64,000 nt of DNA from Clostridia bacterium (GTDB taxonomy: Bacteria > Bacillota > Clostridia > Oscillospirales > CAG-272), in the NCBI GenBank assembly GCA_017451545.1, contig JAFTOB010000160.1, forward strand, positions 1-64,000, in the 5' to 3' direction. The position numbers were made by a program, and so were the translations under genes. Position 1 is the first letter of the stretch. The number at the start of each line of letters is the position of its first letter. Under the pieces are notes generated by a model. That model was given only the letters and a program-made list of their open reading frames with translations. It ran no database searches and had not been told where the DNA came from. Below are positions 4,037-15,888 of this stretch, one piece after another.

Positions 4037-4794
4037 ATGTTTTCTCCAATAATGTTTTTCAGCGCGGCGGCCTCGCCCGCAAGCTCCTCGAGCGTTCCGT
4101 TCGGCATAAATTCAAGCAAAAGCGTGCGAGGGGCAAAAAATGCCTTTATATATTCCCGCCACTCGCAGGCGGCATCGGCAAGCGGGAGCTTTCGGTCGCC
4201 CTTCCAATTGAACACGTGAACGCACTCGGCAAAGGGTGCGATCTTTTTTGCGTTTTCAACATTCTGCTCGGCGCTCTGCCACTGAAAAGGCTGCCAATAC
4301 ATACGGAAATTCGGAGAATTTACCGTCTCCATAAGGTGCACCGCATCGTCGGGATCCTCGGTAAAGGTTCCTCTGTGGCACTCCATACAAAGTGTCACGC
4401 CGTTATTTTCTGCGATATCAGCCGCCCTTCGGCAGACCTCGAAAAAACCGTTTTTCTCTGCGTCGGTCATATCCTTGCCGCTTTTTCTTCCGCACCAGAG
4501 GCGGAGAATATCCGTGCCGAGCAGCTTTGCGGCTTGGATATAGTCCTCCAGTTCTTCTGCGGGCGTTTCGCCCAAGCGGAAATACGTGCCGTACGACGAG
4601 CAGGCTATGCCGTATTCCGCTTGCAGTGCGGCGATCTCACGGAGTCTTTCCGCGCCGCGGCAGGGCGCGTGGATATCACTTCCCCACTCAATGCAGGAAA
4701 GCCCCGCCGCCCGTGCCGCTTCTATTATCGTTCTTGGGTCGAGCTGTCGAAATGATACCGACACCAAGCCCGGATTATATTTGCTTTCTTTCAT
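4033..4794 (-). CDS. Sugar phosphate isomerase/epimerase (xylose-isomerase-like TIM barrel)
   Basis: AGGAG sits 7 nt upstream of the ATG at 4794 (MKESKYNP). AP-endonuclease-2/xylose-isomerase-like composition. Overlaps neighbouring genes, which suggests an operon. Confidence 0.65.
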   Translation of the reverse strand: MKESKYNPGLVSVSFRQLDPRTIIEAARAAGLSCIEWGSDIHAPCRGAERLREIAALQAEYGIACSSYGTYFRLGETPAEELEDYIQAAKLLGTDILRLWCGRKSGKDMTDAEKNGFFEVCRRAADIAENNGVTLCMECHRGTFTEDPDDAVHLMETVNSPNFRMYWQPFQWQSAEQNVENAKKIAPFAECVHVFNWKGDRKLPLADAACEWREYIKAFFAPRTLLLEFMPNGTLEELAGEAAALKNIIGENI

Positions 4795-6583
4795 TGTCCA
4801 TCTCCTGCTTCTTTCTTGCCAGCAGCTTTTCAAACCATAGCTCGGGCTCGGGCATTTTTGATACCTTTTCGATATGAGAGGCTGCTCCTTTTGTGAGGGT
4901 TCGTGTCTCTCGCTTTGCCACGCAGCTTACGGGCTTTCTGTCAACGAAGGCCGAGCCGTGTGTGCCGATCTCCTCGGCCGAGCAAAGCATTGCCGACAGA
5001 GTCGAGCGTTGGGTCAATATCATATCGTAAAGCCGGAAAAGCTCTGCTGTCTGAGATTTGTCCTCGATCAGAACGGTCTCAAAGAACTCATCGTACAGAC
5101 GGTCTGCCTTTCCAAGCAAAGCTCTCATACCCTCGGTGCTTCTGTCAAAGTCGGCAACTCGGCTCATCTCGGTCTGAAGCTCGTTTCTCATCCTTGCAAT
5201 ATTTGACTTACCGTATCTTACGGCAGGTGGCGTATAGATAGGCTTGGATGACGAGCGATCCTGCCTTTTTGCAATATGCTCGGCCGCGCGCAGACTGCCC
5301 ACCTGGGTGGAATTGAGGGCACTGCCGCCGGGGCGGTAAACGCCGAAGGTGCCTGCCGCCTCGCCGGCAACGTAGAGCCCGTCAACGTCACTTTGCCAAT
5401 TTCCGTCCACCGCAACGCCGCCGTTGCAGTGCTGTGCGCAAACGGCGATCTCCAGGGGCTCTTCGTACAGGTTGATCCCGTGGTCGGCGTAAAGCTCGAC
5501 AGCTCCCCTGTTCATTTTCGCAAGTCGCTCGATTGGCGTGCCGAAGAGCGCCCCCGAATTTTTAAGATATTCGTATGCTTCGTCGGGGAGAAGGAGAACG
5601 TCGAAACCGTTTTCAAGCCCCCTCGGATTTTTGTTAAAGTCGAGATATACTTTATTGCCCCGTTTGATCTGCTCGGCAACGAGAATATCGACCGCGGATG
5701 AGCCTTCTGTTTTTCTCGTGTCAAAGGGCCACTGATAGCCCTTGAGAAAAATGAGACCCAGCGAATCCGCGCCCAGACTGTCGTACAGAAATTCCTTTTC
5801 GTTTCCGTCCCTGTCAACCGAAATATAGCGCGGAAGCACCTGCTGATAGGTGCCCGACAGATTCCAACGGAATTTTGTGCTGGCAATTCCGTACTGCCAC
5901 TCCTCCATATTTGAAAGTGTAGCTCCCGCATCGATGGCAAGCCCCGTCGCCCCGTGCTGACTTTCGGGGTAGACCGTGTTTTTGTAGACGCAGGCAGGGC
6001 CGCCCGTGCAAAGCACGATGTTTTGGCAAGCGATGACCGAGCTCTCACCCGTTACCGTGTTCGCGCAGGCCACACCAGTGACCGAGTTGTCCTCGGTTAT
6101 TATTTTTATAACCCGCTCAAAATCAATGATCTCAATGCCCTTGGCGATTACCGAGCGTTCAAGCGCCTCGGTCATATATTTTGAGGTCAAAGGACCGCAG
6201 GAGGTGGCGCGGGTGCGTGGATCGTGGTCGGTCTTATACCCCGCGTATTCGCCAAATTCGTTGGTCGGGAACGGAACTCCAAGCTCAACGAGGCGCATAA
6301 AGCAACGGGTGGAATAGGCCGCCTCGCACAGCGCGTGCTCACCCATAACTCCGCCGCCCGAATAAAGCGTTTCCGCCATCTCGCGCACACTGTCTCCGTC
6401 GCCTCCGCAGAGCGACAGCTTATAATAGGTCTGCTTGTCGCTGCCCGTGTTCCGCGACGTACCCATAAAACGCCCCTCGGTGACAATGGCAATATCACGG
6501 ACTCCGAGGTCATAGAGGCGGTCGGCGGCATTAAAGCCCGCGCACCCCGTGCCGATTATCAAGGTATGGTACTGCTTTTTCAT
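4775..6583 (-). CDS. FAD-dependent oxidoreductase (FAD_binding_2; fumarate reductase/succinate dehydrogenase flavoprotein-like)
   Basis: N-terminal dinucleotide-binding motif (MKKQYHTLIIGTGCAGFNAA). The start at 6583 overlaps the stop of the upstream SDR gene (ATGA). Confidence 0.75.
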   Translation of the reverse strand: MKKQYHTLIIGTGCAGFNAADRLYDLGVRDIAIVTEGRFMGTSRNTGSDKQTYYKLSLCGGDGDSVREMAETLYSGGGVMGEHALCEAAYSTRCFMRLVELGVPFPTNEFGEYAGYKTDHDPRTRATSCGPLTSKYMTEALERSVIAKGIEIIDFERVIKIITEDNSVTGVACANTVTGESSVIACQNIVLCTGGPACVYKNTVYPESQHGATGLAIDAGATLSNMEEWQYGIASTKFRWNLSGTYQQVLPRYISVDRDGNEKEFLYDSLGADSLGLIFLKGYQWPFDTRKTEGSSAVDILVAEQIKRGNKVYLDFNKNPRGLENGFDVLLLPDEAYEYLKNSGALFGTPIERLAKMNRGAVELYADHGINLYEEPLEIAVCAQHCNGGVAVDGNWQSDVDGLYVAGEAAGTFGVYRPGGSALNSTQVGSLRAAEHIAKRQDRSSSKPIYTPPAVRYGKSNIARMRNELQTEMSRVADFDRSTEGMRALLGKADRLYDEFFETVLIEDKSQTAELFRLYDMILTQRSTLSAMLCSAEEIGTHGSAFVDRKPVSCVAKRETRTLTKGAASHIEKVSKMPEPELWFEKLLARKKQEMDNERKQI

Positions 6584-8637: not shown

Positions 8638-9387
8638 GTGACTTATGAATTTAATACAAAGGATTTTGAAATCGAATATATTGAAAGCGAGACCGCGCAT
8701 TCGGTTTTGTGGGAGCGCCATTGCCACGCGAAATACGAGATGATCGCGGTGGCCGAGGGCGATATTACCGTGACGCTTGAAGGGCAAAATTATCGCCTGC
8801 AGAAAAATCAGATCATCATTATTCCTCCGCTTCTCTATCATTCGGTCAGAGCAAACGGTGAGGGAAGCTATAAAAGAATTACGGCGCTGTTCTCTGCCGA
8901 TGCGATCCCCTGCGTTTTGCGCGAGGATTTTGCAAAGCAGGAAAGAAACACGGCCGTCCATACCTCCCGCATAGAAAAGATCAAAGAGATATGTCAAAAG
9001 GAAGATGCGGCGTTTTTCGCTCCGTTGCTTCAAAGTCTGATGACAGAGATATTTTACGATGCCTTCATGATGCCGCAGGATCGCACGAAAGCCGAGACCG
9101 ACGAGTTTTTGCGAAAGACCTTTGAGTATATCGATATGCACCTGCACGAAAAGATCCTGCTTGACGATCTTGCCAGGTATACTGCGAGATCAAAGTCCTC
9201 CTTTTGCCATCTGTTTGAGTCGAAAATGAATATTTCACCAAAGCAGTATATACTGCAAAAAAAGCTCGCTCTGGCGAGCAAGCTGATTGACGAGGGCGTA
9301 CCCCACACCGCGGCGGCAATGCAGGTGGGATACGAAAATTACAGCAATTTCTACCGACTGTACCGCAAAAATGCCGAAAAGCTCTGA
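8638..9387 (+). CDS. AraC-family transcriptional regulator with an N-terminal cupin sensor domain
   Basis: C-terminal AraC HTH (KQYILQKKLALASKLIDEGVPHTAAAMQVGYENYSNFYRLYRKN). It is divergent from the catabolic cluster. The start is taken as GTG 8638 after GAAGGCGG; the track's ATG at 8560 lies in AT-rich promoter DNA. Confidence 0.7.
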   Translation: MTYEFNTKDFEIEYIESETAHSVLWERHCHAKYEMIAVAEGDITVTLEGQNYRLQKNQIIIIPPLLYHSVRANGEGSYKRITALFSADAIPCVLREDFAKQERNTAVHTSRIEKIKEICQKEDAAFFAPLLQSLMTEIFYDAFMMPQDRTKAETDEFLRKTFEYIDMHLHEKILLDDLARYTARSKSSFCHLFESKMNISPKQYILQKKLALASKLIDEGVPHTAAAMQVGYENYSNFYRLYRKNAEKL

Positions 9388-9447
9388 TACCAAAAATTGT
9401 TTATTAAAAGTTTTTGCTTTTCTCTATAGAATTTTTGAGTACTATAA

Positions 9448-9483
9448 AGGAAACAAGCGCCCCTGCGGGGACGCTTGTTTCCT
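9448..9483. terminator. Strong hairpin between araC and the repeat region
   Basis: 13-bp perfect stem (aaggaaacaagcg...cgcttgtttcctt). Confidence 0.35.
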
Positions 9484-9484
9484 T

Positions 9485-9632
9485 ATTGCGAAAGCAGATA
9501 CAGCCTGCGGCTGATAAGATACACGCTTCGCGTGATGATATACGCCTTGCGGCGATGATATGCCATTGCTTTCGCAATGGATAAAAAATCGACAGGTCGA
9601 AACCTGTCGATTTTTGGTGCGGGTAAAAGGAC
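9485..9632. repeat. 148-bp direct repeat, copy A
   Basis: One mismatch against copy B at 9768..9915. Contains internal inverted repeats, a hairpin plus T-run (9588-9615), and then the last 18 nt of a tRNA-Leu 3' end (tggtgcgggtaaaaggac). Confidence 0.85.
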
Positions 9633-9767
9633 ATTTGAACTGCAGCGGCTCGCGCTGCGGCAAGAATGGTTTGGCTTTGTTTTTTTATTATCAATCACGG
9701 CGAAGCCGTGTATATCATCAAGACGGAGTCTTGCATATCATCAATTCCGAAGGAATTGCATATCATC

Positions 9768-9915
9768 ATTGCGAAAGCAGATACAGCCTGCGGCTGATGA
9801 GATACACGCTTCGCGTGATGATATACGCCTTGCGGCGATGATATGCCATTGCTTTCGCAATGGATAAAAAATCGACAGGTCGAAACCTGTCGATTTTTGG
9901 TGCGGGTAAAAGGAC
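9768..9915. repeat. 148-bp direct repeat, copy B
   Basis: Read directly from the sequence. Ends in the same terminator hairpin (9871-9898) and runs into the 54-nt tRNA-Leu 3' fragment. Confidence 0.85.
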
Positions 9916-9951
9916 TTGAACCTTCACCGAGTTGCCCCGACTAGAACCTGA
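9898..9951 (-). other. 54-nt duplicate of the tRNA-Leu(CAG) 3' half (anticodon loop to CCA); candidate att-type direct repeat
   Basis: Identical to 10812..10865 of the intact tRNA gene. The 5' half is absent and divergence starts inside the anticodon loop. Confidence 0.8.
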
Positions 9952-9976
9952 TGGTAACGTATCCTCGGTGAAAAGT

Positions 9977-10657
9977 TTAACCTTTACCGTACATATAATA
10001 TGGAGTGACTATTTCTCCTGTATATTTATCTATCCAATATTCCGTGTCATAAGCATAATAGTTATCAACAATTTTTTGAATAACTATAACATAAATATGA
10101 TCGGGAGCAGGCTCACTGACATCGAGTTCACCACGATAGGCATTTTTTCCATTATCAAGATCCGCATCTTTGCAATGATTTTCGACAATTTCTATCGCTT
10201 CCTCTACTGAAATACATTTATTCCCCGCTTCGCACGCAGGCGTTGTGATCTCCCCCGTAAAAGCATTGATCAATATCCGATCCATCGTTTGAACGTCGTA
10301 AGGCGTCGTGCCATCATCCCCATCTCTACCACCGTTTGATCTCCATTCAATCAAAAAATCCGCTGTATAATACTCCACGTCGGAACACGGCATATCGGTC
10401 AACACGATCTTTGCGTTCCAGATTGTTCCTGCACCGTAATCTTTGCTACCATCCTGACAGTCCCAATATGTGTTTGCCAAACTCCAAGCCTGCTCTTCCG
10501 TTACGGGATAGCAATTTGTCGACTTTAAGACATCACTTTCGTTGTTTTCCGTATCGCTATTCGTATGAGGCAATTCATTACCGTCATTTTGCACGGTGCA
10601 GGAGATCAGCGAAAGCATCATAATTAAGCAAAGCAAAATTGCAATATATTTCTTCAT
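9977..10657 (-). CDS. Lipoprotein of unknown function
   Basis: Signal peptide with lipobox (LSLISC). It lies between the tRNA-Leu 3' duplicate and the intact tRNA-Leu. Confidence 0.6.
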   Translation of the reverse strand: MKKYIAILLCLIMMLSLISCTVQNDGNELPHTNSDTENNESDVLKSTNCYPVTEEQAWSLANTYWDCQDGSKDYGAGTIWNAKIVLTDMPCSDVEYYTADFLIEWRSNGGRDGDDGTTPYDVQTMDRILINAFTGEITTPACEAGNKCISVEEAIEIVENHCKDADLDNGKNAYRGELDVSEPAPDHIYVIVIQKIVDNYYAYDTEYWIDKYTGEIVTPYYMYGKG

Positions 10658-10811
10658 TTAAACCTCCGAATTTTTAGTCTGTAAGGTCAGTATAACATAC
10701 CGAAAAAGGCGTGTCAATAAGGTGGGGAAAAGTTTTTTTATTTGGCACTTTTTGAGTTCAAAGTGGTGGAAAAACCTAAAAAAACAAAAAGGAGCAAAAG
10801 CTCCTTTTTGT

Positions 10812-10898
10812 TGGTGCGGGTAAAAGGACTTGAACCTTCACCGAGTTGCCCCGACTAGAACCTGAATCTAGCGCGTCTGCCAATTCCGCCATACCCGC
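10812..10898 (-). tRNA. tRNA-Leu (anticodon CAG)
   Basis: Folded by hand. Acceptor GCGGGTA/TACCCGC, D-arm with GG, anticodon stem CTAGA/TCTAG with loop TTCAGGT, long variable arm, T-loop TTCAAGT, encoded CCA. A terminator hairpin lies immediately downstream (10786-10810). Confidence 0.85.
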
Positions 10899-10927: not shown

Positions 10928-11084
10928 TCAACTTCCGATGCTTCGCATCGGAACGTTGTCGCCATCACCCGCATCTGAAACGCGATCTCTCACGTCTCTA
11001 TATAAAGCAATGCTTGATCAGGGCCATTGCTTATTTTCAAAAACAAAGCAGCCGCTTTTGCGACTGCTTTGCTTTGGTGCGGGA

Positions 11085-11169
11085 AACGGGACTTGAACCC
11101 GTACGGTGAAATCCACACGCCCCTCAAACGTGCGCGTCTGCCAGTTCCGCCACTCCCGCGTGAGCCGCT
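11085..11169 (-). tRNA. tRNA-Leu (anticodon GAG)
   Basis: Folded by hand. Acceptor GCGGGAG, anticodon loop TTGAGGG, long variable arm, T-loop TTCAAGT, CCA encoded. A terminator hairpin with T-run lies downstream (11040-11084). Confidence 0.85.
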
Positions 11170-12087: not shown

Positions 12088-12666
12088 TCAGCTTACGTTA
12101 AATCCTTTGAGCTCAAAAAACTTGGTATTGTAGATATATGCGGTGCCGTAGCTCTGCTTCGCCGTAACGTAATAGAAGGTATTCCCTGCCACGGAGGTGT
12201 TTTCAAGCCCCGTCGAGCTCATTCCGTAGGTCTTGCTCCAGCCGTAATGATATCCTTCGGGCATACGCCAGCTTGCGCCGGATTCAAAGTAAAACACCGT
12301 TACCGTGCGCGTGGTTCTCACTCTTCTTCTGCCTAAATGCGGCTCGTATATTTCCTCCTCCGCTATATGGCTTAAAACCTCCTCGGACACCGCGAGCTCG
12401 CCGTTTTTCAGCATATCGGTCATCTTGATTTTTTGGGCTTTTTCCTCCCGCTTTTCCGAAATAAACCTTACCGTATGATACACGGGCACGGTGAGTATAG
12501 CGATAGCGGGCCACGGGTTTTTCATAAGAATGCCCACAAGTATTGCCGCCAAAAGGAACGGGACAATATACACCAAGCGTTTTTCACTGCTTGTGTCTGA
12601 CTTGTACTCAAAAACCGAGACAAGATCATTTCTCATATTATCGACGGTCAAAAGCTCTTTTTTCAC
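12088..12666 (-). CDS. Small membrane protein, unknown function
   Basis: One or two TM helices near the N-terminus plus a soluble C-terminal domain. Member of a co-directional array downstream of the flotillin gene. Confidence 0.5.
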   Translation of the reverse strand: MKKELLTVDNMRNDLVSVFEYKSDTSSEKRLVYIVPFLLAAILVGILMKNPWPAIAILTVPVYHTVRFISEKREEKAQKIKMTDMLKNGELAVSEEVLSHIAEEEIYEPHLGRRRVRTTRTVTVFYFESGASWRMPEGYHYGWSKTYGMSSTGLENTSVAGNTFYYVTAKQSYGTAYIYNTKFFELKGFNVS

Positions 12667-13337
12667 AGCTCTTCCCCTTCCTTCAGATATTTCAAAAAGC
12701 CCTCGTTATCGTAGATGATGACGTTTTCAAGGACTCTGTCGCCGTTACCGAGGCCGCCCTCGCGGGTGTCCTTATTACGGATCTCCATCGGCATTTTCGA
12801 CAGCAGAATTATATTGACGTCGCGTGCGTCGGGAGCCTTCCACGGCATAAACAGGCTTCTTTTCTGCCTCCACGTGCGCGTGCCGAGGGAGACGTGGGCG
12901 CTATCCTTGCCGCTGCGAACCGAGGTGACCTTGGACACGTAGCGTTCCACCGTGTTTTCGTTCTCAAAATAGTAGCGCATATAGGTCTTGACGCCCCGCA
13001 GGATCACCAGATTATGGCGAACCTTTTTGCGGTAAAAGACCGCGTCGTACCTGCCCTTTATGCGGAGCAGGTTCGGAAGATATGCCACCTTTACGTGCTC
13101 GCAAAAGACCCCGTTCAGTTCCCTTTTGATTCGTGACATGAAGATTACTCGCTTGACGAGCAAAAATACCGCGACGGTCAGGGCGACGGCGATGAGCGCG
13201 ATAAGCAGGGGGACGTTTCTGATCGGCTTGCCTCCGTGCGGGGCGAAGAATATGAGCCCTATTATTACGGCCAGCGCGACTGCGGCGAGGGTCTTTATGA
13301 GGTCGAGTATTTTCTTTCTGCTTTTCATTTTCTTCAC
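12663..13337 (-). CDS. Small membrane protein, unknown function (possible distant paralog of 13876..14745)
   Basis: Basic N-terminus, two TM helices, and a roughly 150-aa C-terminal domain. Its stop overlaps the start of the downstream gene. Confidence 0.5.
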   Translation of the reverse strand: MKKMKSRKKILDLIKTLAAVALAVIIGLIFFAPHGGKPIRNVPLLIALIAVALTVAVFLLVKRVIFMSRIKRELNGVFCEHVKVAYLPNLLRIKGRYDAVFYRKKVRHNLVILRGVKTYMRYYFENENTVERYVSKVTSVRSGKDSAHVSLGTRTWRQKRSLFMPWKAPDARDVNIILLSKMPMEIRNKDTREGGLGNGDRVLENVIIYDNEGFLKYLKEGEEL

Positions 13338-13340
13338 CCG

Positions 13341-13859
13341 TTATTTGTTGTCAATCCGCCATTCGTACATTTTTGTGCTGTACACATTCAGCGGCAACTG
13401 TGCTCGCCTTGAAAAATTAAACTTTTTATCAAACCTGAGTATGTAAAACGTGTCGCCTATTTCGGTATAATCCAGAAGTTTCTTGCTGTGAAGCATATAT
13501 TCTCCATTCTTTTGAAAGCACAGAAGGTCAACCACCTGAATTTTTCCGCGGCGGCCTCGGAGAATCACATCCCGTCTGATATCGCAAAGTGTATCGACTT
13601 CCACAACGTACTTCCGCTTGGCAATCTTTACGTAGCAGTATACCAAGTAACCCGCAAAGGCAAGCAGCAGAGCCGCGGCCACGCAAATGGCAAGCTTGCG
13701 CGTTTCCCACCCGGCGATGGCGGCAGGAAGCATAATGACTGTAAGTATCGCAACGATTGCCGTCTGAATCTTCAAATCTTTTTTCAGAAAATCCGCAACA
13801 GCTTTGTGATCCAACGTTTTTTTCAGTTTGTCGGTATCGGTAAATCTGTAATTTCCCAT
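13341..13859 (-). CDS. Small membrane protein, possibly bacterial PH-domain (YdbS/YdbT-like) architecture
   Basis: Two TM helices followed by an approximately 90-aa beta-rich domain. The family call is tentative. Confidence 0.45.
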   Translation of the reverse strand: MGNYRFTDTDKLKKTLDHKAVADFLKKDLKIQTAIVAILTVIMLPAAIAGWETRKLAICVAAALLLAFAGYLVYCYVKIAKRKYVVEVDTLCDIRRDVILRGRRGKIQVVDLLCFQKNGEYMLHSKKLLDYTEIGDTFYILRFDKKFNFSRRAQLPLNVYSTKMYEWRIDNK

Positions 13860-13875
13860 TGTTCATCCAACTTTA

Positions 13876-14745
13876 TTATGTATTGGGTTTTTCAAGCTCC
13901 CTTTCCAAAAGGTCGACAAATCCCGTGCCGCTGTATGCGGCGTAGCCGAAGAACTCGGCGCCGCTTCCGCTTTCAAGCATTTTGCCTTCCTTTTCATCGA
14001 AGGCCTGCATTGAATATGGCGCGGGGTTCATCAGCAGAACCTTCACGTGCTTTTTCGAGCTGTAACGTCCGCCCTCGAAGGCGTAGCTCACGAATTTCAC
14101 TTTTTCGTGGCTGCCGAACATAAGCTTGAATCGATTTTTCAGCACGCCCGTAATGACCTGCGCCATATCGGGCTCTGTAAATCTTATGACCGCGAGGCGG
14201 CGCGGCGTGGGGAAAAACATCACGTCATAGACGGTGTTCCCTGCCTCCACGGTGAAGTCGCAAACGCCCGACGGGCGGCGCACGTTACGGTAGAGGCTAC
14301 GGTTGCGGTAGACCTTTATTTTGCGTTCCTTTGCCATTTTCTTCAGCCGCTTTACGAATTTTCGCCGTCTGAAATAAGGCTTTGAAAGAATCGAGACTAT
14401 GACGATGAAGGCGGCGGACAGAACGACGAAGCTGATCAGCGGCCCGCCGTAAAAGGCGAAGGCGACAAAAGAAATAACGAGGAAGGACAGATAGAGCGCG
14501 GCAAAGAAATATCCGAGTATTGCCACCGCCACGGTGCGGTAAATAACCGAGAAAAAGGACACTCTGCGCGAGCCGTAGCTGCGGTATTTTTCGCGGGCGT
14601 GGTATTCGTTCATTATGCGCTCGCGCTTTTCCTTGGCGGTCAGCTTGCGCTTGCCGTTGAACTCATACATTCCCTGCCCGCGCCCCACCTCGATAAAGGA
14701 GGAATGCATTCTGTCCCAATTACTTCCCATGTGATGTGCCGACAT
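13876..14745 (-). CDS. Membrane protein, unknown function
   Basis: Basic cytoplasmic N-terminal region, three hydrophobic helices and a C-terminal domain. Confidence 0.5.
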   Translation of the reverse strand: MSAHHMGSNWDRMHSSFIEVGRGQGMYEFNGKRKLTAKEKRERIMNEYHAREKYRSYGSRRVSFFSVIYRTVAVAILGYFFAALYLSFLVISFVAFAFYGGPLISFVVLSAAFIVIVSILSKPYFRRRKFVKRLKKMAKERKIKVYRNRSLYRNVRRPSGVCDFTVEAGNTVYDVMFFPTPRRLAVIRFTEPDMAQVITGVLKNRFKLMFGSHEKVKFVSYAFEGGRYSSKKHVKVLLMNPAPYSMQAFDEKEGKMLESGSGAEFFGYAAYSGTGFVDLLERELEKPNT

Positions 14746-14747
14746 AG

Positions 14748-15338
14748 TTATTTCCTTTCGTTAGTCAATCGGAGCGTGTGACCGCAAAGGTCGCACTTTT
14801 TGTTAGCTATGGGGTTTTCGGTGCCGCAGATGACGCAGATGATCTCCTGGCTTGCGGCGGTGGGTAGCACCTGCAGGTATTTTGTGCCCGCAAGGTGGAG
14901 GACGCGGTCGCCCTCGCGGTACTGCTCAAACTTTTGCGATCGGTTTGCGTCGCACTCGTGGACGGTACGGTTTATGACCTTGCCCGAATCGAGGCGAATA
15001 TAGAGAACTACGCTTTCTTTCGTATACATATCTCCGGTTTTGCCCGGCGATTTGCTGCGAAAGGCCGTGCTCAGCTCTCTGTCCACATTGACCACCGTGC
15101 CGATCCATGTCCTTCCCATCAGCGCAACGGGCAGGCCCGTGGCAGCGAAGGGGATCAGGAAGAGAAGGACGTATATGGTGGCCTGATTGCCCGCTCCGAA
15201 GCCGCCGAAGAGCATATCTCCCCACAGGAAGATAAAAAGCGCCACGGCAACGAGGAGGACGGCGAAGGGGATGAGCCGTCTCGCCGCCTTTTTGTTTTTA
15301 TATTCGCGGATATCTGCGGGGATCCTTATCTTTTCCAT
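14748..15338 (-). CDS. Membrane protein with a C-terminal zinc-ribbon (CxxC...CxxC); YdjG-like by analogy
   Basis: Two TM helices and CVICGTENPIANKKCDLCGH at the C-terminus. Confidence 0.55.
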   Translation of the reverse strand: MEKIRIPADIREYKNKKAARRLIPFAVLLVAVALFIFLWGDMLFGGFGAGNQATIYVLLFLIPFAATGLPVALMGRTWIGTVVNVDRELSTAFRSKSPGKTGDMYTKESVVLYIRLDSGKVINRTVHECDANRSQKFEQYREGDRVLHLAGTKYLQVLPTAASQEIICVICGTENPIANKKCDLCGHTLRLTNERK

Positions 15339-15339
15339 A

Positions 15340-15888
15340 TCAATCCTTTTCGACGTTGCGCTTTGCGAGCAAGAGGCAAAGCAGGGTCTCGCCTATGCGG
15401 ACGGCGCCCGCAAGGACGGTTCCGACGATCCAGCCGAGAAGGGGCATATTCATACCCGTAAGGAGGATCCAGCCGAGGTCGGTGAAATAGAAGGTTGCCG
15501 ACATTGCCGCCAGGGGCCACACGGCGCACATAAACACTATAGGGAGCTGGAAGGCGGCGAAGATGCCTGTCTCCCAGAGATTTTGCTTGAGAAAGTTTTC
15601 TTTGTAATATCCGATGACCGTGAAGCTCTCGTCCTTCATTGCCATTCGCAGATCGCGGCGGAAATCGTTGAAGGAGAACTCGATCTTGCTTTCAATAAAG
15701 AAGATTACGGCGTAAAGGATGATTCCGAAGACCGACCAGGTCAGATAGGCCTCGGTGTAAAATTCGTATTTGACCAGCGACATGATATAGCCCGCAAGCA
15801 TCATATCGAAGAGGAACATTCCCGCAACGTGGGCAAGTGCCACGATGCCGAACCATTTAACGAGCTTTCTGAAAAGTGCAGGAGTCAT
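15340..15888 (-). CDS. Polytopic membrane protein (YdjH-like by position)
   Basis: Four to five TM helices. Lies immediately downstream of the flotillin gene. Confidence 0.5.
   Translation of the reverse strand: MTPALFRKLVKWFGIVALAHVAGMFLFDMMLAGYIMSLVKYEFYTEAYLTWSVFGIILYAVIFFIESKIEFSFNDFRRDLRMAMKDESFTVIGYYKENFLKQNLWETGIFAAFQLPIVFMCAVWPLAAMSATFYFTDLGWILLTGMNMPLLGWIVGTVLAGAVRIGETLLCLLLAKRNVEKD

What the first reader, a model, noticed from the sequence alone, without database searches (positions are those of the whole stretch)
9485..10898. tRNA-Leu(CAG) locus carries nested 3'-half duplications and two 148-bp direct repeats, consistent with a decayed integration site carrying a lipoprotein gene
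The intact tRNA-Leu(CAG) is at 10812..10898 on the minus strand. A perfect 54-nt copy of its 3' half, from the anticodon loop to CCA, sits 860 bp away at 9898..9951 in the same orientation and brackets a single lipoprotein gene. A third, shorter and degenerate 3'-end copy of 18 nt plus a similar extension is at 9615..9632. Each of the two upstream fragments is embedded at the end of a 148-bp unit that differs from the other by one nucleotide (9485..9632 and 9768..9915) and includes a terminator hairpin. Direct repeats of a tRNA 3' end are the classic scars of tyrosine-integrase-mediated insertion, but no integrase remains. The segments look like successive insertion and decay events, or tandem duplication of the attachment region.
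Basis: seen in the sequence. Interest (0 to 1): 0.6.

Follow-up and report, generated by a model that had tools for sequence, protein, structure and literature searches.

The report
Stacked insertion scars at a tRNA-Leu gene
The end of a leucine tRNA gene in an uncultured gut Clostridia bacterium is a repeatedly used landing site for mobile DNA: it now holds a one-gene lipoprotein mini-island with no integrase, and beside it a duplicated non-coding hairpin module related to the orphan Gut-1 RNA motif. This is an ordinary kind of locus with one small new twist.

Summary
tRNA-Leu(CAG) lies at 10812-10898(-). A perfect 55-nt copy of its 3' half lies at 9897-9951, an 18-nt copy of its 3' end at 9615-9632, and a 153-nt direct repeat at 9480-9632 and 9763-9915.

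- The same 860-bp lipoprotein cassette occurs in another metagenome with a Lagaffe-like prophage carrying a diversity-generating retroelement (DGR). The prophage starts exactly after the CCA of the distal tRNA copy.
- A related species has the tRNA followed directly by the terminator and hairpin array, with no cassette.
- A third species has a 2.6-kb island with the same ends between the same repeats.
- A 96%-identical cassette sits beside a different tRNA-Leu(CAG) in an unrelated gene neighbourhood.

The cassette is AT-rich and has no integrase within 6 kb on either side. It fits a cis-mobilizable remnant (CIME-like) in a tandem accretion site.

The 153-nt repeat consists of the tRNA 3' end, a bidirectional terminator, and one arm of a two-armed array of small hairpins with covarying stems. 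This array is a divergent relative of the Gut-1 motif (RF01706). True Gut-1 arrays sit in the same position beside tRNA fragments elsewhere. The most likely origin is tandem duplication of a 283-bp unit flanked by the tRNA-end core. Known kind, modest interest.

The parts
11075..11159 (-). tRNA-Leu(GAG), the upstream neighbour of the target tRNA. Context only.
   Evidence: ARAGORN; Rfam tRNA model, 45 bits. The same tRNA pair is present in L021, L022 and L023.
10812..10898 (-). Intact tRNA-Leu(CAG). This is the attachment-site (attB/attL) gene.
   Evidence: ARAGORN; Rfam tRNA model, 54.2 bits. The 3' half is identical in 10 species-level metagenome-assembled genomes (MAGs) of Oscillospiraceae and other Clostridia.
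10811..10865 (-). Proximal 55-nt core repeat (attL-type), running from the anticodon loop to CCA plus 1 nt, inside the intact tRNA.
   Evidence: Exact repeat of 9897-9951.
10783..10812 (-). Intrinsic terminator supplied by the cassette directly after the tRNA 3' end.
   Evidence: Terminator scan: 13 pairs followed by a T-run. Homologous sequence is present in L001, L003 and L021.
10689..10717 (-). Promoter of the lipoprotein gene: TTGACA, 17-nt spacer, TATACT, with an upstream TG (extended -10).
   Evidence: Promoter scan, 11 of 12 positions match. This arm is conserved in L001 (two copies), L021, and L196 to L201.
9977..10657 (-). Lipoprotein gene (226 aa), the cargo of the mini-island. The predicted protein has two PepSY/cystatin-like domains.
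9952..9976 (-). Right arm of the cassette, next to the distal core. It is conserved in related islands that carry other cargo.
   Evidence: 94% identical in L021. Also similar in L197.
9897..9951 (-). Distal 55-nt core repeat (attR-type): the displaced tRNA 3' half. It is used as an attachment site by a prophage in another strain.
   Evidence: Exact repeat. In L003 phage DNA starts right after its CCA, and the copy carries one mismatch.
9867..9898 (.). Bidirectional terminator hairpin t', in repeat copy 2.
   Evidence: Inverted repeat I15: perfect 14-nt arms between an A-run and a T-run. Compensatory changes occur in L193, L023 and L196.
9768..9863 (+). S' arm of the hairpin-array module, in repeat copy 2: the centre hairpin plus four hairpins joined by (G)ATGATAT linkers.
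   Evidence: Hairpin table. Rfam Gut-1 hit of 29 bits, below the gathering threshold of 50. Alignment with covarying stems.
9694..9767 (+). R arm of the module: three hairpins in the opposite orientation, with ATATCAT linkers and GAA/GGA loops.
   Evidence: (families D5, D6).
9633..9693 (-). Segment x: unique spacer between the R arm and the 18-nt core. It contains a degenerate T-loop-like TTCAAAT and an 8-bp hairpin.
   Evidence: Sequence; hairpin table. No exact match to the x/core junction in IMG/VR or JGI metagenomes.
9615..9632 (-). Outermost copy of the tRNA 3' end (18 nt exact), a short core of the T-loop type.
9584..9615 (.). Bidirectional terminator hairpin t, in repeat copy 1.
   Evidence: Inverted repeat I14.
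9485..9580 (+). S arm of the module, in repeat copy 1. The copy starts exactly at the centre of symmetry between the R and S arms.
   Evidence: Hairpin table. Rfam Gut-1 hit of 26 bits. One mismatch to copy 2, at 9516.
9447..9484 (+). 17-bp hairpin downstream of the AraC-family gene (8638-9387). It marks the left boundary of the repeat region.
   Evidence: Inverted repeat I7. Gene call and Pfam annotation from L002.

Best explanation
**What it is.** The 3' end of tRNA-Leu(CAG) is an attachment site (attB) that integrative elements have used repeatedly. The window shows a composite 'accretion' structure there.

**1. The lipoprotein cassette.**
- The 860-bp cassette (9952-10810) lies between two perfect 55-nt copies of the tRNA segment that runs from the anticodon loop to CCA. 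This is the signature of site-specific recombination with crossover in or near the anticodon loop.
- The cassette brings its own terminator for the rebuilt tRNA, its own promoter, and one cargo gene: a secreted lipoprotein predicted to have two PepSY-like domains.
- It carries no recombinase, so it is a remnant of the cis-mobilizable (CIME) type.
- Inferred: it could move only if an integrase supplied by a co-resident element acted on its two att sites.

**2. The distal 55-nt copy is still a usable attachment site.**
- In another strain, a Lagaffe-like prophage carrying a diversity-generating retroelement (DGR) is inserted exactly at its CCA end.
- This gives the order tRNA, cassette, att, prophage.

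**3. The 153-nt repeats.**
- Further out lies a non-coding module made of a bidirectional terminator and two oppositely oriented arrays of small GNRA/GNA-loop hairpins. It is a divergent relative of the Gut-1 motif.
- In the closest relative, this module is the ordinary downstream flank of the tRNA.
- In the window, a 283-bp unit (18-nt tRNA-end core, terminator, S arm, R arm, spacer x) is present about 1.5 times. That produces the 153-nt repeats.
- Inferred: the unit was duplicated in tandem through its flanking core repeats, either by unequal crossover or by an integrase. The outer copy was then truncated at the centre of symmetry of the module, next to the AraC hairpin.

**Shown versus inferred.**
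- Shown: the repeats, the polymorphism, the foreign composition, and the conservation of the module.
- Inferred: the type of recombinase, mobilisation in trans, and the order and mechanism of the 283-bp duplication.
For: **Repeats and anatomy:**

**Insertion polymorphism:**
- The identical lipoprotein occurs in three contexts.
- In L003 the cassette is 99.7% identical. Its distal core carries one mismatch 9 nt from the end, and holin, endolysin and DGR genes follow it. These genes are about 80% identical to Faecalibacterium phage FP_Lagaffe.
- The same phage arm abuts the CCA end of other tRNA-Leu genes in IMG/VR contigs L054 and L038.
- L023, the relative closest in the tRNA flank, has tRNA, terminator and hairpin array with no cassette.
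- L021 has a 2.6-kb island between the same 55-nt repeats, carrying a 571-aa lipoprotein and a membrane protein. Both of its arms are homologous to the window's.
- L197 has another element ending in the same right arm plus the tRNA 3' half.
- In L001/L004 the cassette is 96% identical, but it sits beside a tRNA-Leu(CAG) that is only 93% identical, in an unrelated gene neighbourhood.
- More distant lipoprotein homologues also lie just downstream of tRNA-Leu(CAG) or its fragments.

**Foreign composition:** the cassette is 39.8% GC against 51.6% for the window.

**No integrase:** no integrase family is annotated within 6 kb on either side.

**The module:**
- It is conserved, with compensatory stem changes, in L193, L023 and L196.
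- True Gut-1 arrays (78.9 and 50.8 bits) occupy the same position after a tRNA-Leu fragment and a terminator in L001.
- The same arrangement follows a tRNA-Arg fragment in L137, a tRNA fragment at a prophage contig end in L125, L234 and L270, and intact tRNAs in L124 and in one Gut-1 seed sequence.
- In L196 and L001 the module is likewise bracketed by repeats of the tRNA end.

**Literature:** the concept of accretion and CIMEs is described in PMC5704250 and PMC12084326.
Against: - No integrase was found for any of these elements. The far end of the L003 prophage could not be retrieved, so the recombinase type and the true extent of the phage core are unknown.
- The 55-nt core has no exact match in IMG/VR.
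- In L001 the cassette lacks a right att copy. It is also part of a larger local duplication that includes the 3' end of an AraC gene. So cassettes also spread by ordinary recombination, not only by site-specific insertion.
- The lipoprotein family is so consistently next to tRNA-Leu(CAG) that old vertical linkage cannot be fully excluded for the distant homologues.
- The tandem-duplication-plus-truncation model for the 153-nt repeat needs two events, and no intermediate was observed.
- The module nearest in sequence to the window's (L193) is not next to a tRNA.
- L002 may not be an assembly independent of the window.
Confidence: 0.75

Rival explanations
1. All the repeats arose from local, recombinase-independent duplication of the tRNA 3' region (replication slippage or unequal crossover). 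On this view the lipoprotein gene is an old resident neighbour of the tRNA, not imported DNA.
For: - The 153-nt repeat includes 135 nt beyond the tRNA end, which a simple att duplication does not produce.
- Lipoprotein homologues lie next to tRNA-Leu(CAG) in many Clostridia MAGs.
- L001 shows an ordinary segmental duplication of the cassette's left arm.
Against: - The 55-nt repeat ends exactly at the anticodon loop on one side and at CCA plus 1 nt on the other.
- The DNA between the repeats is unique, AT-rich, and absent in L023.
- In L021 it is replaced by a different island that has the same arms.
- It is 96-100% identical between hosts whose tRNA and flanks differ.
- A phage uses the distal copy as its insertion point.
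Confidence: 0.1
2. The hairpin-array module is itself the mobile entity. It would be either a miniature integrase-dependent element or the arm region of the attP site of a family of tRNA-targeting elements. The 283-bp unit was then inserted twice by site-specific recombination at the short T-loop-type core. The 153-nt repeat would therefore reflect two integrations, not a duplication.
For: - In the window, L196 and L001, the unit of terminator, S arm and R arm is bracketed by direct repeats of the tRNA 3' end. The outer copies carry a variant T-loop that is not the host tRNA's.
- The module always starts right at the CCA end.
- Modules with identical hairpins, such as cgaatgcgtcagcattcg, lie next to different tRNAs (Arg in L137, Gln in L124) or next to a protein-coding gene (L143).
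- The short conserved linkers occur as direct and inverted repeats, as the arm-type binding sites of integrases do.
Against: - In L270, L234 and L125 the module lies outside the prophage, after the displaced fragment, as a native flank would.
- Modules also occur with no tRNA or fragment nearby (L193, and 9 of 13 JGI loci).
- Covarying hairpin stems are not explained by protein arm sites.
- No integrase is linked to any module.
Confidence: 0.13
3. The repeats are an assembly artefact: collapsed or mis-joined repeats in a metagenome-assembled genome.
For: - Short-read contigs break at these repeats (L005, L006, L007, L009 and L011 all end in them).
- The perfect repeat length of 55 nt equals a k-mer size commonly used by assemblers.
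Against: - The same arrangement is 100% identical over 4 kb in an ENA scaffold.
- L003, L021 and L196 show equivalent repeat structures in other assemblies and other species.
- The two 153-nt copies differ at three positions and have distinct flanks.
Confidence: 0.02

Closest known systems
CIMEs (cis-mobilizable elements) and tandem accretion at tRNA attachment sites. Examples: ICESt1/ICESt3-related islands of Streptococcus thermophilus, and the composite structures of ICEs, IMEs and remnants in Faecalibacterium (PMC5704250, PMC12084326).
   Same: - An element that keeps attL and attR but has no integration or transfer genes.
- It lies at the 3' end of a tRNA gene.
- A second, functional element is inserted into the att site flanking the resident remnant (L003).
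- Remnants at a tRNA-Leu 3' end are reported in the related genus Faecalibacterium.
   Different: - At 860 bp with one gene, the remnant here is far smaller than described CIMEs.
- Its partner is a prophage, not a conjugative element.
- Derivation from an ICE or IME, and mobilisation, are untested.
Integration of temperate phages and islands into tRNA genes by tyrosine recombinases, with anticodon-loop or T-loop crossover positions.
   Same: - One repeat runs from the anticodon loop to the 3' end (55 nt), and another covers only the T-loop-to-end portion (18 nt).
- The element rebuilds the tRNA and supplies a terminator.
   Different: No integrase gene is present, so the recombinase family is only inferred. 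Close relatives of the phage (Lagaffe itself) use an IS30-type transposase instead.
Gut-1 RNA motif (Rfam RF01706; Weinberg et al. 2010, PMC2864571).
   Same: - Tandem short hairpins with covarying stems, joined by a conserved 7-nt linker.
- The window's linker, AUGAUAU, is one or two substitutions from the GUGAUAU and GUGAAAU linkers of seed members.
- True Gut-1 arrays occupy the equivalent position in L001.
   Different: - The window arrays score 26-29 bits against a gathering threshold of 50.
- They lie in the opposite orientation relative to the adjacent tRNA.
- They are one half of a two-armed module (R arm and S arm) with an attached bidirectional terminator. The Rfam model does not describe this arrangement.
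REP/BIME elements of enterobacteria. This is a functional analogy from my own knowledge.
   Same: - Clusters of small palindromic units in alternating orientation.
- They lie in intergenic regions at the 3' ends of transcription units, next to terminators.
   Different: REP units are copies of one sequence. Here the stems differ from unit to unit, and only the linkers and loop types are conserved. No RAYT-type transposase is linked.

Membership tests
Integrated element at a tRNA attachment site (site-specific recombination scar) | Direct repeats consisting of the 3' part of the tRNA, one copy inside an intact tRNA gene | tested here: met
   The 55-nt perfect repeat 10811-10865 / 9897-9951 runs from the anticodon loop to CCA plus 1 nt. 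The tRNA is intact.
Integrated element at a tRNA attachment site (site-specific recombination scar) | The DNA between the repeats is foreign and variably present among relatives | tested here: met
   GC is 39.8% against 51.6% for the window. The cassette is absent in L023, replaced by another island in L021, and 96-100% identical in other hosts and contexts.
Integrated element at a tRNA attachment site (site-specific recombination scar) | A cognate integrase gene inside or next to the element | tested here: not met
   No integrase family appears among the genes within 6 kb on either side (Pfam column of L002, which is identical to the window). None is present in L021, L196 or L197 either.
CIME (cis-mobilizable element) | Retains attL and attR but lacks recombination and transfer genes | tested here: met
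   Two perfect 55-nt cores flank a single lipoprotein gene.
CIME (cis-mobilizable element) | Found in tandem (accretion) with an element that shares its att site | tested here: met
   In L003 the order is tRNA end, cassette, core, then prophage (holin, endolysin, DGR). This is seen in another strain, not in the window.
CIME (cis-mobilizable element) | Derived from an ICE or IME by deletion, and excised or transferred in cis | not testable with these tools
   No conjugation genes or pseudogenes are present. Excision would need read-level or experimental data.
Gut-1 RNA (RF01706) | Match to the covariance model at or above the gathering score (50 bits) | tested here: not met
   The window scores 29.0 bits (9774-9849) and 26.0 bits (9491-9566). 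L001 scores 78.9 and 50.8 bits.
Gut-1 RNA (RF01706) | Tandem hairpins with covarying stems, separated by a conserved purine-rich 7-nt linker | tested here: met
   Hairpin table. Compensatory stem changes among the window, L193, L023 and L196. Seed members with GUGAUAU linkers.
   ARAGORN and the Rfam tRNA model find nothing at 9898-9990. Upstream of 9951, the sequence is the right arm of the cassette.
PepSY-domain protein (PF03413), for the cargo gene | Pfam match above the gathering threshold | tested here: inconclusive

The most novel reading that the evidence does not exclude
The orphan Gut-1 'RNA' motif may be only half of a roughly 200-bp element with two-fold (dyad) symmetry. The full element would be a bidirectional terminator plus two opposed arrays of GNRA/GNA-loop hairpins, whose linkers are reverse complements of each other in four sequence classes. 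It preferentially sits immediately after the CCA end of tRNA genes that serve as phage or island attachment sites. It can be bracketed and multiplied by repeats of the tRNA end. On this reading it is either a mobile, integrase-dependent non-coding cassette (or attP arm), or a bidirectional transcription insulator that integrative elements carry and exchange with their target sites.
Probability: 0.2. Interest if true: 0.6.

Novelty: new member of a known kind. Interest (0 to 1): 0.38.

Why it matters
The locus is a clean, small example of how tRNA attachment sites in uncultured gut Clostridia build up cargo:
- It holds a single-gene lipoprotein cassette that keeps both att sites.
- A prophage docks onto that cassette in another strain.
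- The cassette recurs across species.

It therefore marks tRNA-Leu(CAG) as an integration hot spot, and the PepSY-like lipoprotein family as typical cargo next to att sites in this group.

The side result may be more useful. It gives the 15-year-old orphan Gut-1 motif a host group (Oscillospiraceae and related Clostridia), a fuller architecture, and a preferred genomic position. That makes its function testable.

Tried and rejected
- **Exact-pattern scans.** The 55-nt core, the phage-type core variant and the x/core junction gave no hits in IMG/VR. The junction gave none in JGI metagenomes either.
- **Search for the integrase.** The second att copy of the related prophage contig was not found. 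Most holin relatives carry an IS30-type transposase, as Lagaffe does, not a tRNA-site module. The far end of the L003 contig could not be fetched.
- **AraC orthologue loci.** I fetched L187 to L193 hoping for an empty site. Synteny ends at the AraC stop codon, so they say nothing about the history of the repeats, apart from the module in L193.
- **Lipoprotein function.** tblastn of the lipoprotein against the phage collection found no match. Foldseek against PDB found nothing significant.
- **Raw 3x GTGAAAT pattern.** Most matches in the metagenome and viral collections were unrelated tandem repeats and had to be filtered for distinct hairpin spacers.
- **Rejected readings:**
  - A second tRNA gene.
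  - The short ORFs overlapping 9404-9927, because they run through the hairpin arrays on both strands.
  - A simple tandem duplication of x, R, S and t, because x and R occur only once.
Full report

Yes.
- ARAGORN and the Rfam tRNA model place tRNA-Leu(CAG) at 10812-10898 and tRNA-Leu(GAG) at 11075-11159, both on the minus strand.
- An exact copy of the 3' half of tRNA-Leu(CAG) lies at 9898-9951. Counting one extra base, the perfect repeat is 55 nt (9897-9951 = 10811-10865).
- An exact 18-nt copy of the 3' end lies at 9615-9632, followed by a degenerate T-loop-like stretch.
- The two 148-nt units differ only at position 9516. The repeat extends to 153 nt (9480-9632 and 9763-9915) with two more mismatches at its edge.
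- Each unit carries a perfect hairpin with 14-nt arms between an A-run and a T-run, so it could terminate in both directions.
- Between the 55-nt repeats lies a single 226-aa ORF. It has a signal peptide and lipobox and a near-consensus promoter.
- The 54-nt copy is not part of a second tRNA.
- Repeats of this length cannot arise by chance in 64 kb.
- An ENA metagenome scaffold shows the identical arrangement over 4 kb.

**2. Evidence for integration and polymorphism**

The exact lipoprotein sequence occurs in three kinds of context.

(a) L002 matches the window.

(b) L003 comes from another sample.
- It carries the cassette at 99.7% identity.
- Immediately after the CCA of the distal core, host sequence is replaced by phage genes: a holin-like protein, a CHAP/lysozyme endolysin, and a diversity-generating retroelement (DGR; reverse transcriptase, Avd and a target protein).
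- These genes are about 80% identical at the DNA level to Faecalibacterium phage FP_Lagaffe.
- The core next to the phage has one mismatch 9 nt from its end. This is expected if the phage supplied that part after a crossover further upstream.
- The same phage arm (GAAGGCGCGAATTTGAACAC...GGATCC) abuts the CCA end of other tRNA-Leu genes in IMG/VR contigs L054 and L038. This phage lineage therefore targets tRNA-Leu 3' ends.

(c) L001/L004 hold the cassette at 96% identity. It sits beside a tRNA-Leu(CAG) that is only 93% identical, in an unrelated neighbourhood (rpmE and nagA).

The 54-nt pattern occurs in ten species-level MAGs, all Oscillospiraceae, Ruminococcus or other Clostridia. Two are informative.
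- L023 has the tRNA pair followed directly by a terminator and hairpin array, with no cassette.
- L021 has a 2.6-kb island between the same two cores. It encodes a 571-aa lipoprotein and a membrane protein, and both of its arms are homologous to the window's.

L197 has yet another element ending in the same right arm plus the tRNA 3' half.

The cassette is AT-rich: 39.8% GC against 51.6% for the window. No integrase family is annotated within 6 kb on either side.

**3. The cargo**

- The lipoprotein family is small: 50 cluster representatives, all from uncultured Clostridia, mostly on contigs of 1-3 kb.
- More distant members again lie just downstream of tRNA-Leu(CAG) or its fragments (L196 to L198, L200, L201).
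- An AlphaFold2 model (mean pLDDT 77) shows two alpha/beta domains.
- Pfam PepSY is just below threshold.
- Function remains unknown. An envelope-protective or immunity-type role would be typical for genes next to att sites, but this is speculation.

**4. What the 153-nt repeat is made of**

- Each copy contains the 18-nt tRNA end, the bidirectional terminator, and four hairpins with different stems joined by (G)ATGATAT linkers. I call this the S arm.
- Between the copies lie three more hairpins in the opposite orientation, with ATATCAT linkers. I call this the R arm. A unique 61-nt spacer, x, also lies there.
- Every hairpin has a GNA or GNRA loop on one strand: the plus strand for R and the minus strand for S.
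- Rfam gives sub-threshold hits to Gut-1 RNA (29 and 26 bits; gathering threshold 50).
- The R-S-terminator module is conserved, with compensatory stem changes, in L193, L023 and L196.
- In L001, true Gut-1 arrays (78.9 and 50.8 bits) form the same two-armed structure right after a tRNA-Leu fragment and terminator.

The same arrangement recurs at other tRNAs:
- after a tRNA-Arg fragment in L137;
- after a tRNA fragment at the end of prophage contigs in L125, L234 and L270;
- after an intact tRNA-Gln in L124;
- in one sequence of the original Gut-1 seed alignment (an intact tRNA, then a terminator, then the array).

Four of 13 bona fide Gut-1 loci from JGI metagenomes have a tRNA gene within about 250 nt. 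I estimate that a few per cent would be expected by chance; this is a rough figure from small numbers.

The published description of Gut-1 gives no context or function.

**5. Linkers**

Across four linker classes, the S and R linkers are always reverse complements of each other:
- GTGAAAT and ATTTCAC;
- GTGATAT and ATATCAC;
- ATGATAT and ATATCAT;
- ATGCCAT and ATGGCAT.

Minimum-free-energy folds of either strand pair the linkers into a ladder of branched helices (z-scores -6.6 to -8.9). This fits long-range pairing. It fits equally well one duplex motif read in two orientations, and I could not separate the two.

**6. History of the 283-bp periodicity**

- In L023 the order R, S, terminator, tRNA is contiguous and single-copy. 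The right-hand copy in the window (R, S', t', tRNA end) therefore looks like the ordinary flank.
- The extra material is S, t, the 18-nt core and x.
- The left copy begins exactly at the centre of symmetry between R and S (TTGCGAAAGCA), directly after the AraC hairpin.
- In L196 and L001 the module is also bracketed by repeats of the tRNA end, whose outer copies carry a variant T-loop.
- The simplest account is as follows. A unit flanked by the short core (core, t, S, R, x) was duplicated in tandem, by unequal exchange between cores or by an integrase. The outer copy then lost R, x and its core by a deletion ending at the palindromic centre. This is inference, and no intermediate was found.
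- The rival reading, that the module itself is a miniature integrase-dependent element or an attP arm, is not excluded. It is weakened by modules that lie outside prophages as native flank and by modules with no tRNA nearby.

**7. Comparison with known systems**

- The cassette matches the definition of a cis-mobilizable remnant in a tandem accretion structure at a tRNA 3' end. Such structures are described for streptococcal ICEs and IMEs, and for Faecalibacterium, where remnants at a tRNA-Leu 3' end are reported.
- It differs in being very small and in being paired with a prophage.
- It fails the integrase criterion for an autonomous element.
- The window arrays fail the Gut-1 gathering score but share the defining architecture of Gut-1.

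**8. Verdict**

It is a new member of a well-known kind of locus. The modest added value is a direct demonstration of insertion polymorphism, plus the link between tRNA attachment-site flanks and the orphan Gut-1 hairpin arrays.

Noticed in passing
L001:5539-5724, L137:3660-3840, L125:5900-6110; window 9485-9863: Gut-1 RNA (RF01706) occurs as two opposed arrays attached to a bidirectional terminator. The Rfam model covers only one arm. The linkers of the two arms are reverse complements of each other in four sequence classes, and predicted folds pair them.
   Followed up: partly
L137:3870-3889 and 4066-4085; L125 about 6075-6106; L270 about 450-480: Other tRNAs (Arg-CCG, and an unidentified one next to a Met/Thr/Gln tRNA cluster) also have a duplicated 3'-end fragment followed by a terminator and a Gut-1 array. 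In IMG/VR contigs L234 and L270 this sits at the edge of a predicted prophage.
   Followed up: partly
L001:12420-12681 versus L001:5790-6010: Four features occur twice, 6.6 kb apart, in the same genome: the 3' end of an AraC gene, a degenerate tRNA-like fragment, a terminator, and the lipoprotein promoter with its signal-peptide region. The second copy leads into a different 330-aa lipoprotein. So the cassette arm also spreads by ordinary duplication.
   Followed up: partly
L003:1838-6869: The prophage next to the cassette carries a diversity-generating retroelement (reverse transcriptase, Avd, and an FGE-sulfatase/C-type-lectin-fold target) next to its lysis genes, as in Faecalibacterium phage Lagaffe.
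   Followed up: no
L029, L030, L031, L035, L039, L044, L047, L055 (2-3 kb downstream of the holin): Most relatives of this phage carry an IS30-family transposase after the lysis module, as Lagaffe does. The L003, L054, L038 and L053 lineage instead abuts tRNA-Leu genes. This suggests the integration module was swapped within one phage group.
   Followed up: partly
L054:7754-7961: Two nearly identical full-length tRNA-Leu(CAG) genes lie in tandem next to the prophage end. This may be another product of recombination at the attachment site.
   Followed up: no
L200:4332-5921, L201:3657-5246: In another Clostridia MAG, the lipoprotein homologue downstream of tRNA-Leu(CAG) is followed by a 529-aa TIR-domain protein and an HTH_3 protein. 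This looks like a defence-type island at the same tRNA.
   Followed up: no
L124:1253-1378: One Gut-1 array has a roughly 50-nt insertion inside its first hairpin. The insertion contains a GGGGTCCCCG palindrome that also occurs in the segment between the tRNA and its fragment in L137.
   Followed up: no
window 12088-15888: A run of six or seven small ORFs on the same strand has no Pfam family. They lie between the DUF975 gene and a Band_7 gene, and the run is conserved in L002 and L011. From their sequences they appear to encode membrane proteins; I did not test this.
   Followed up: no
L187:2541-4971, L189:5963-6956: In sister species, the AraC gene is followed by small HTH_3 and YAcAr-family genes instead of the tRNA locus. 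This looks like a different mobile-element remnant at that boundary.
   Followed up: no
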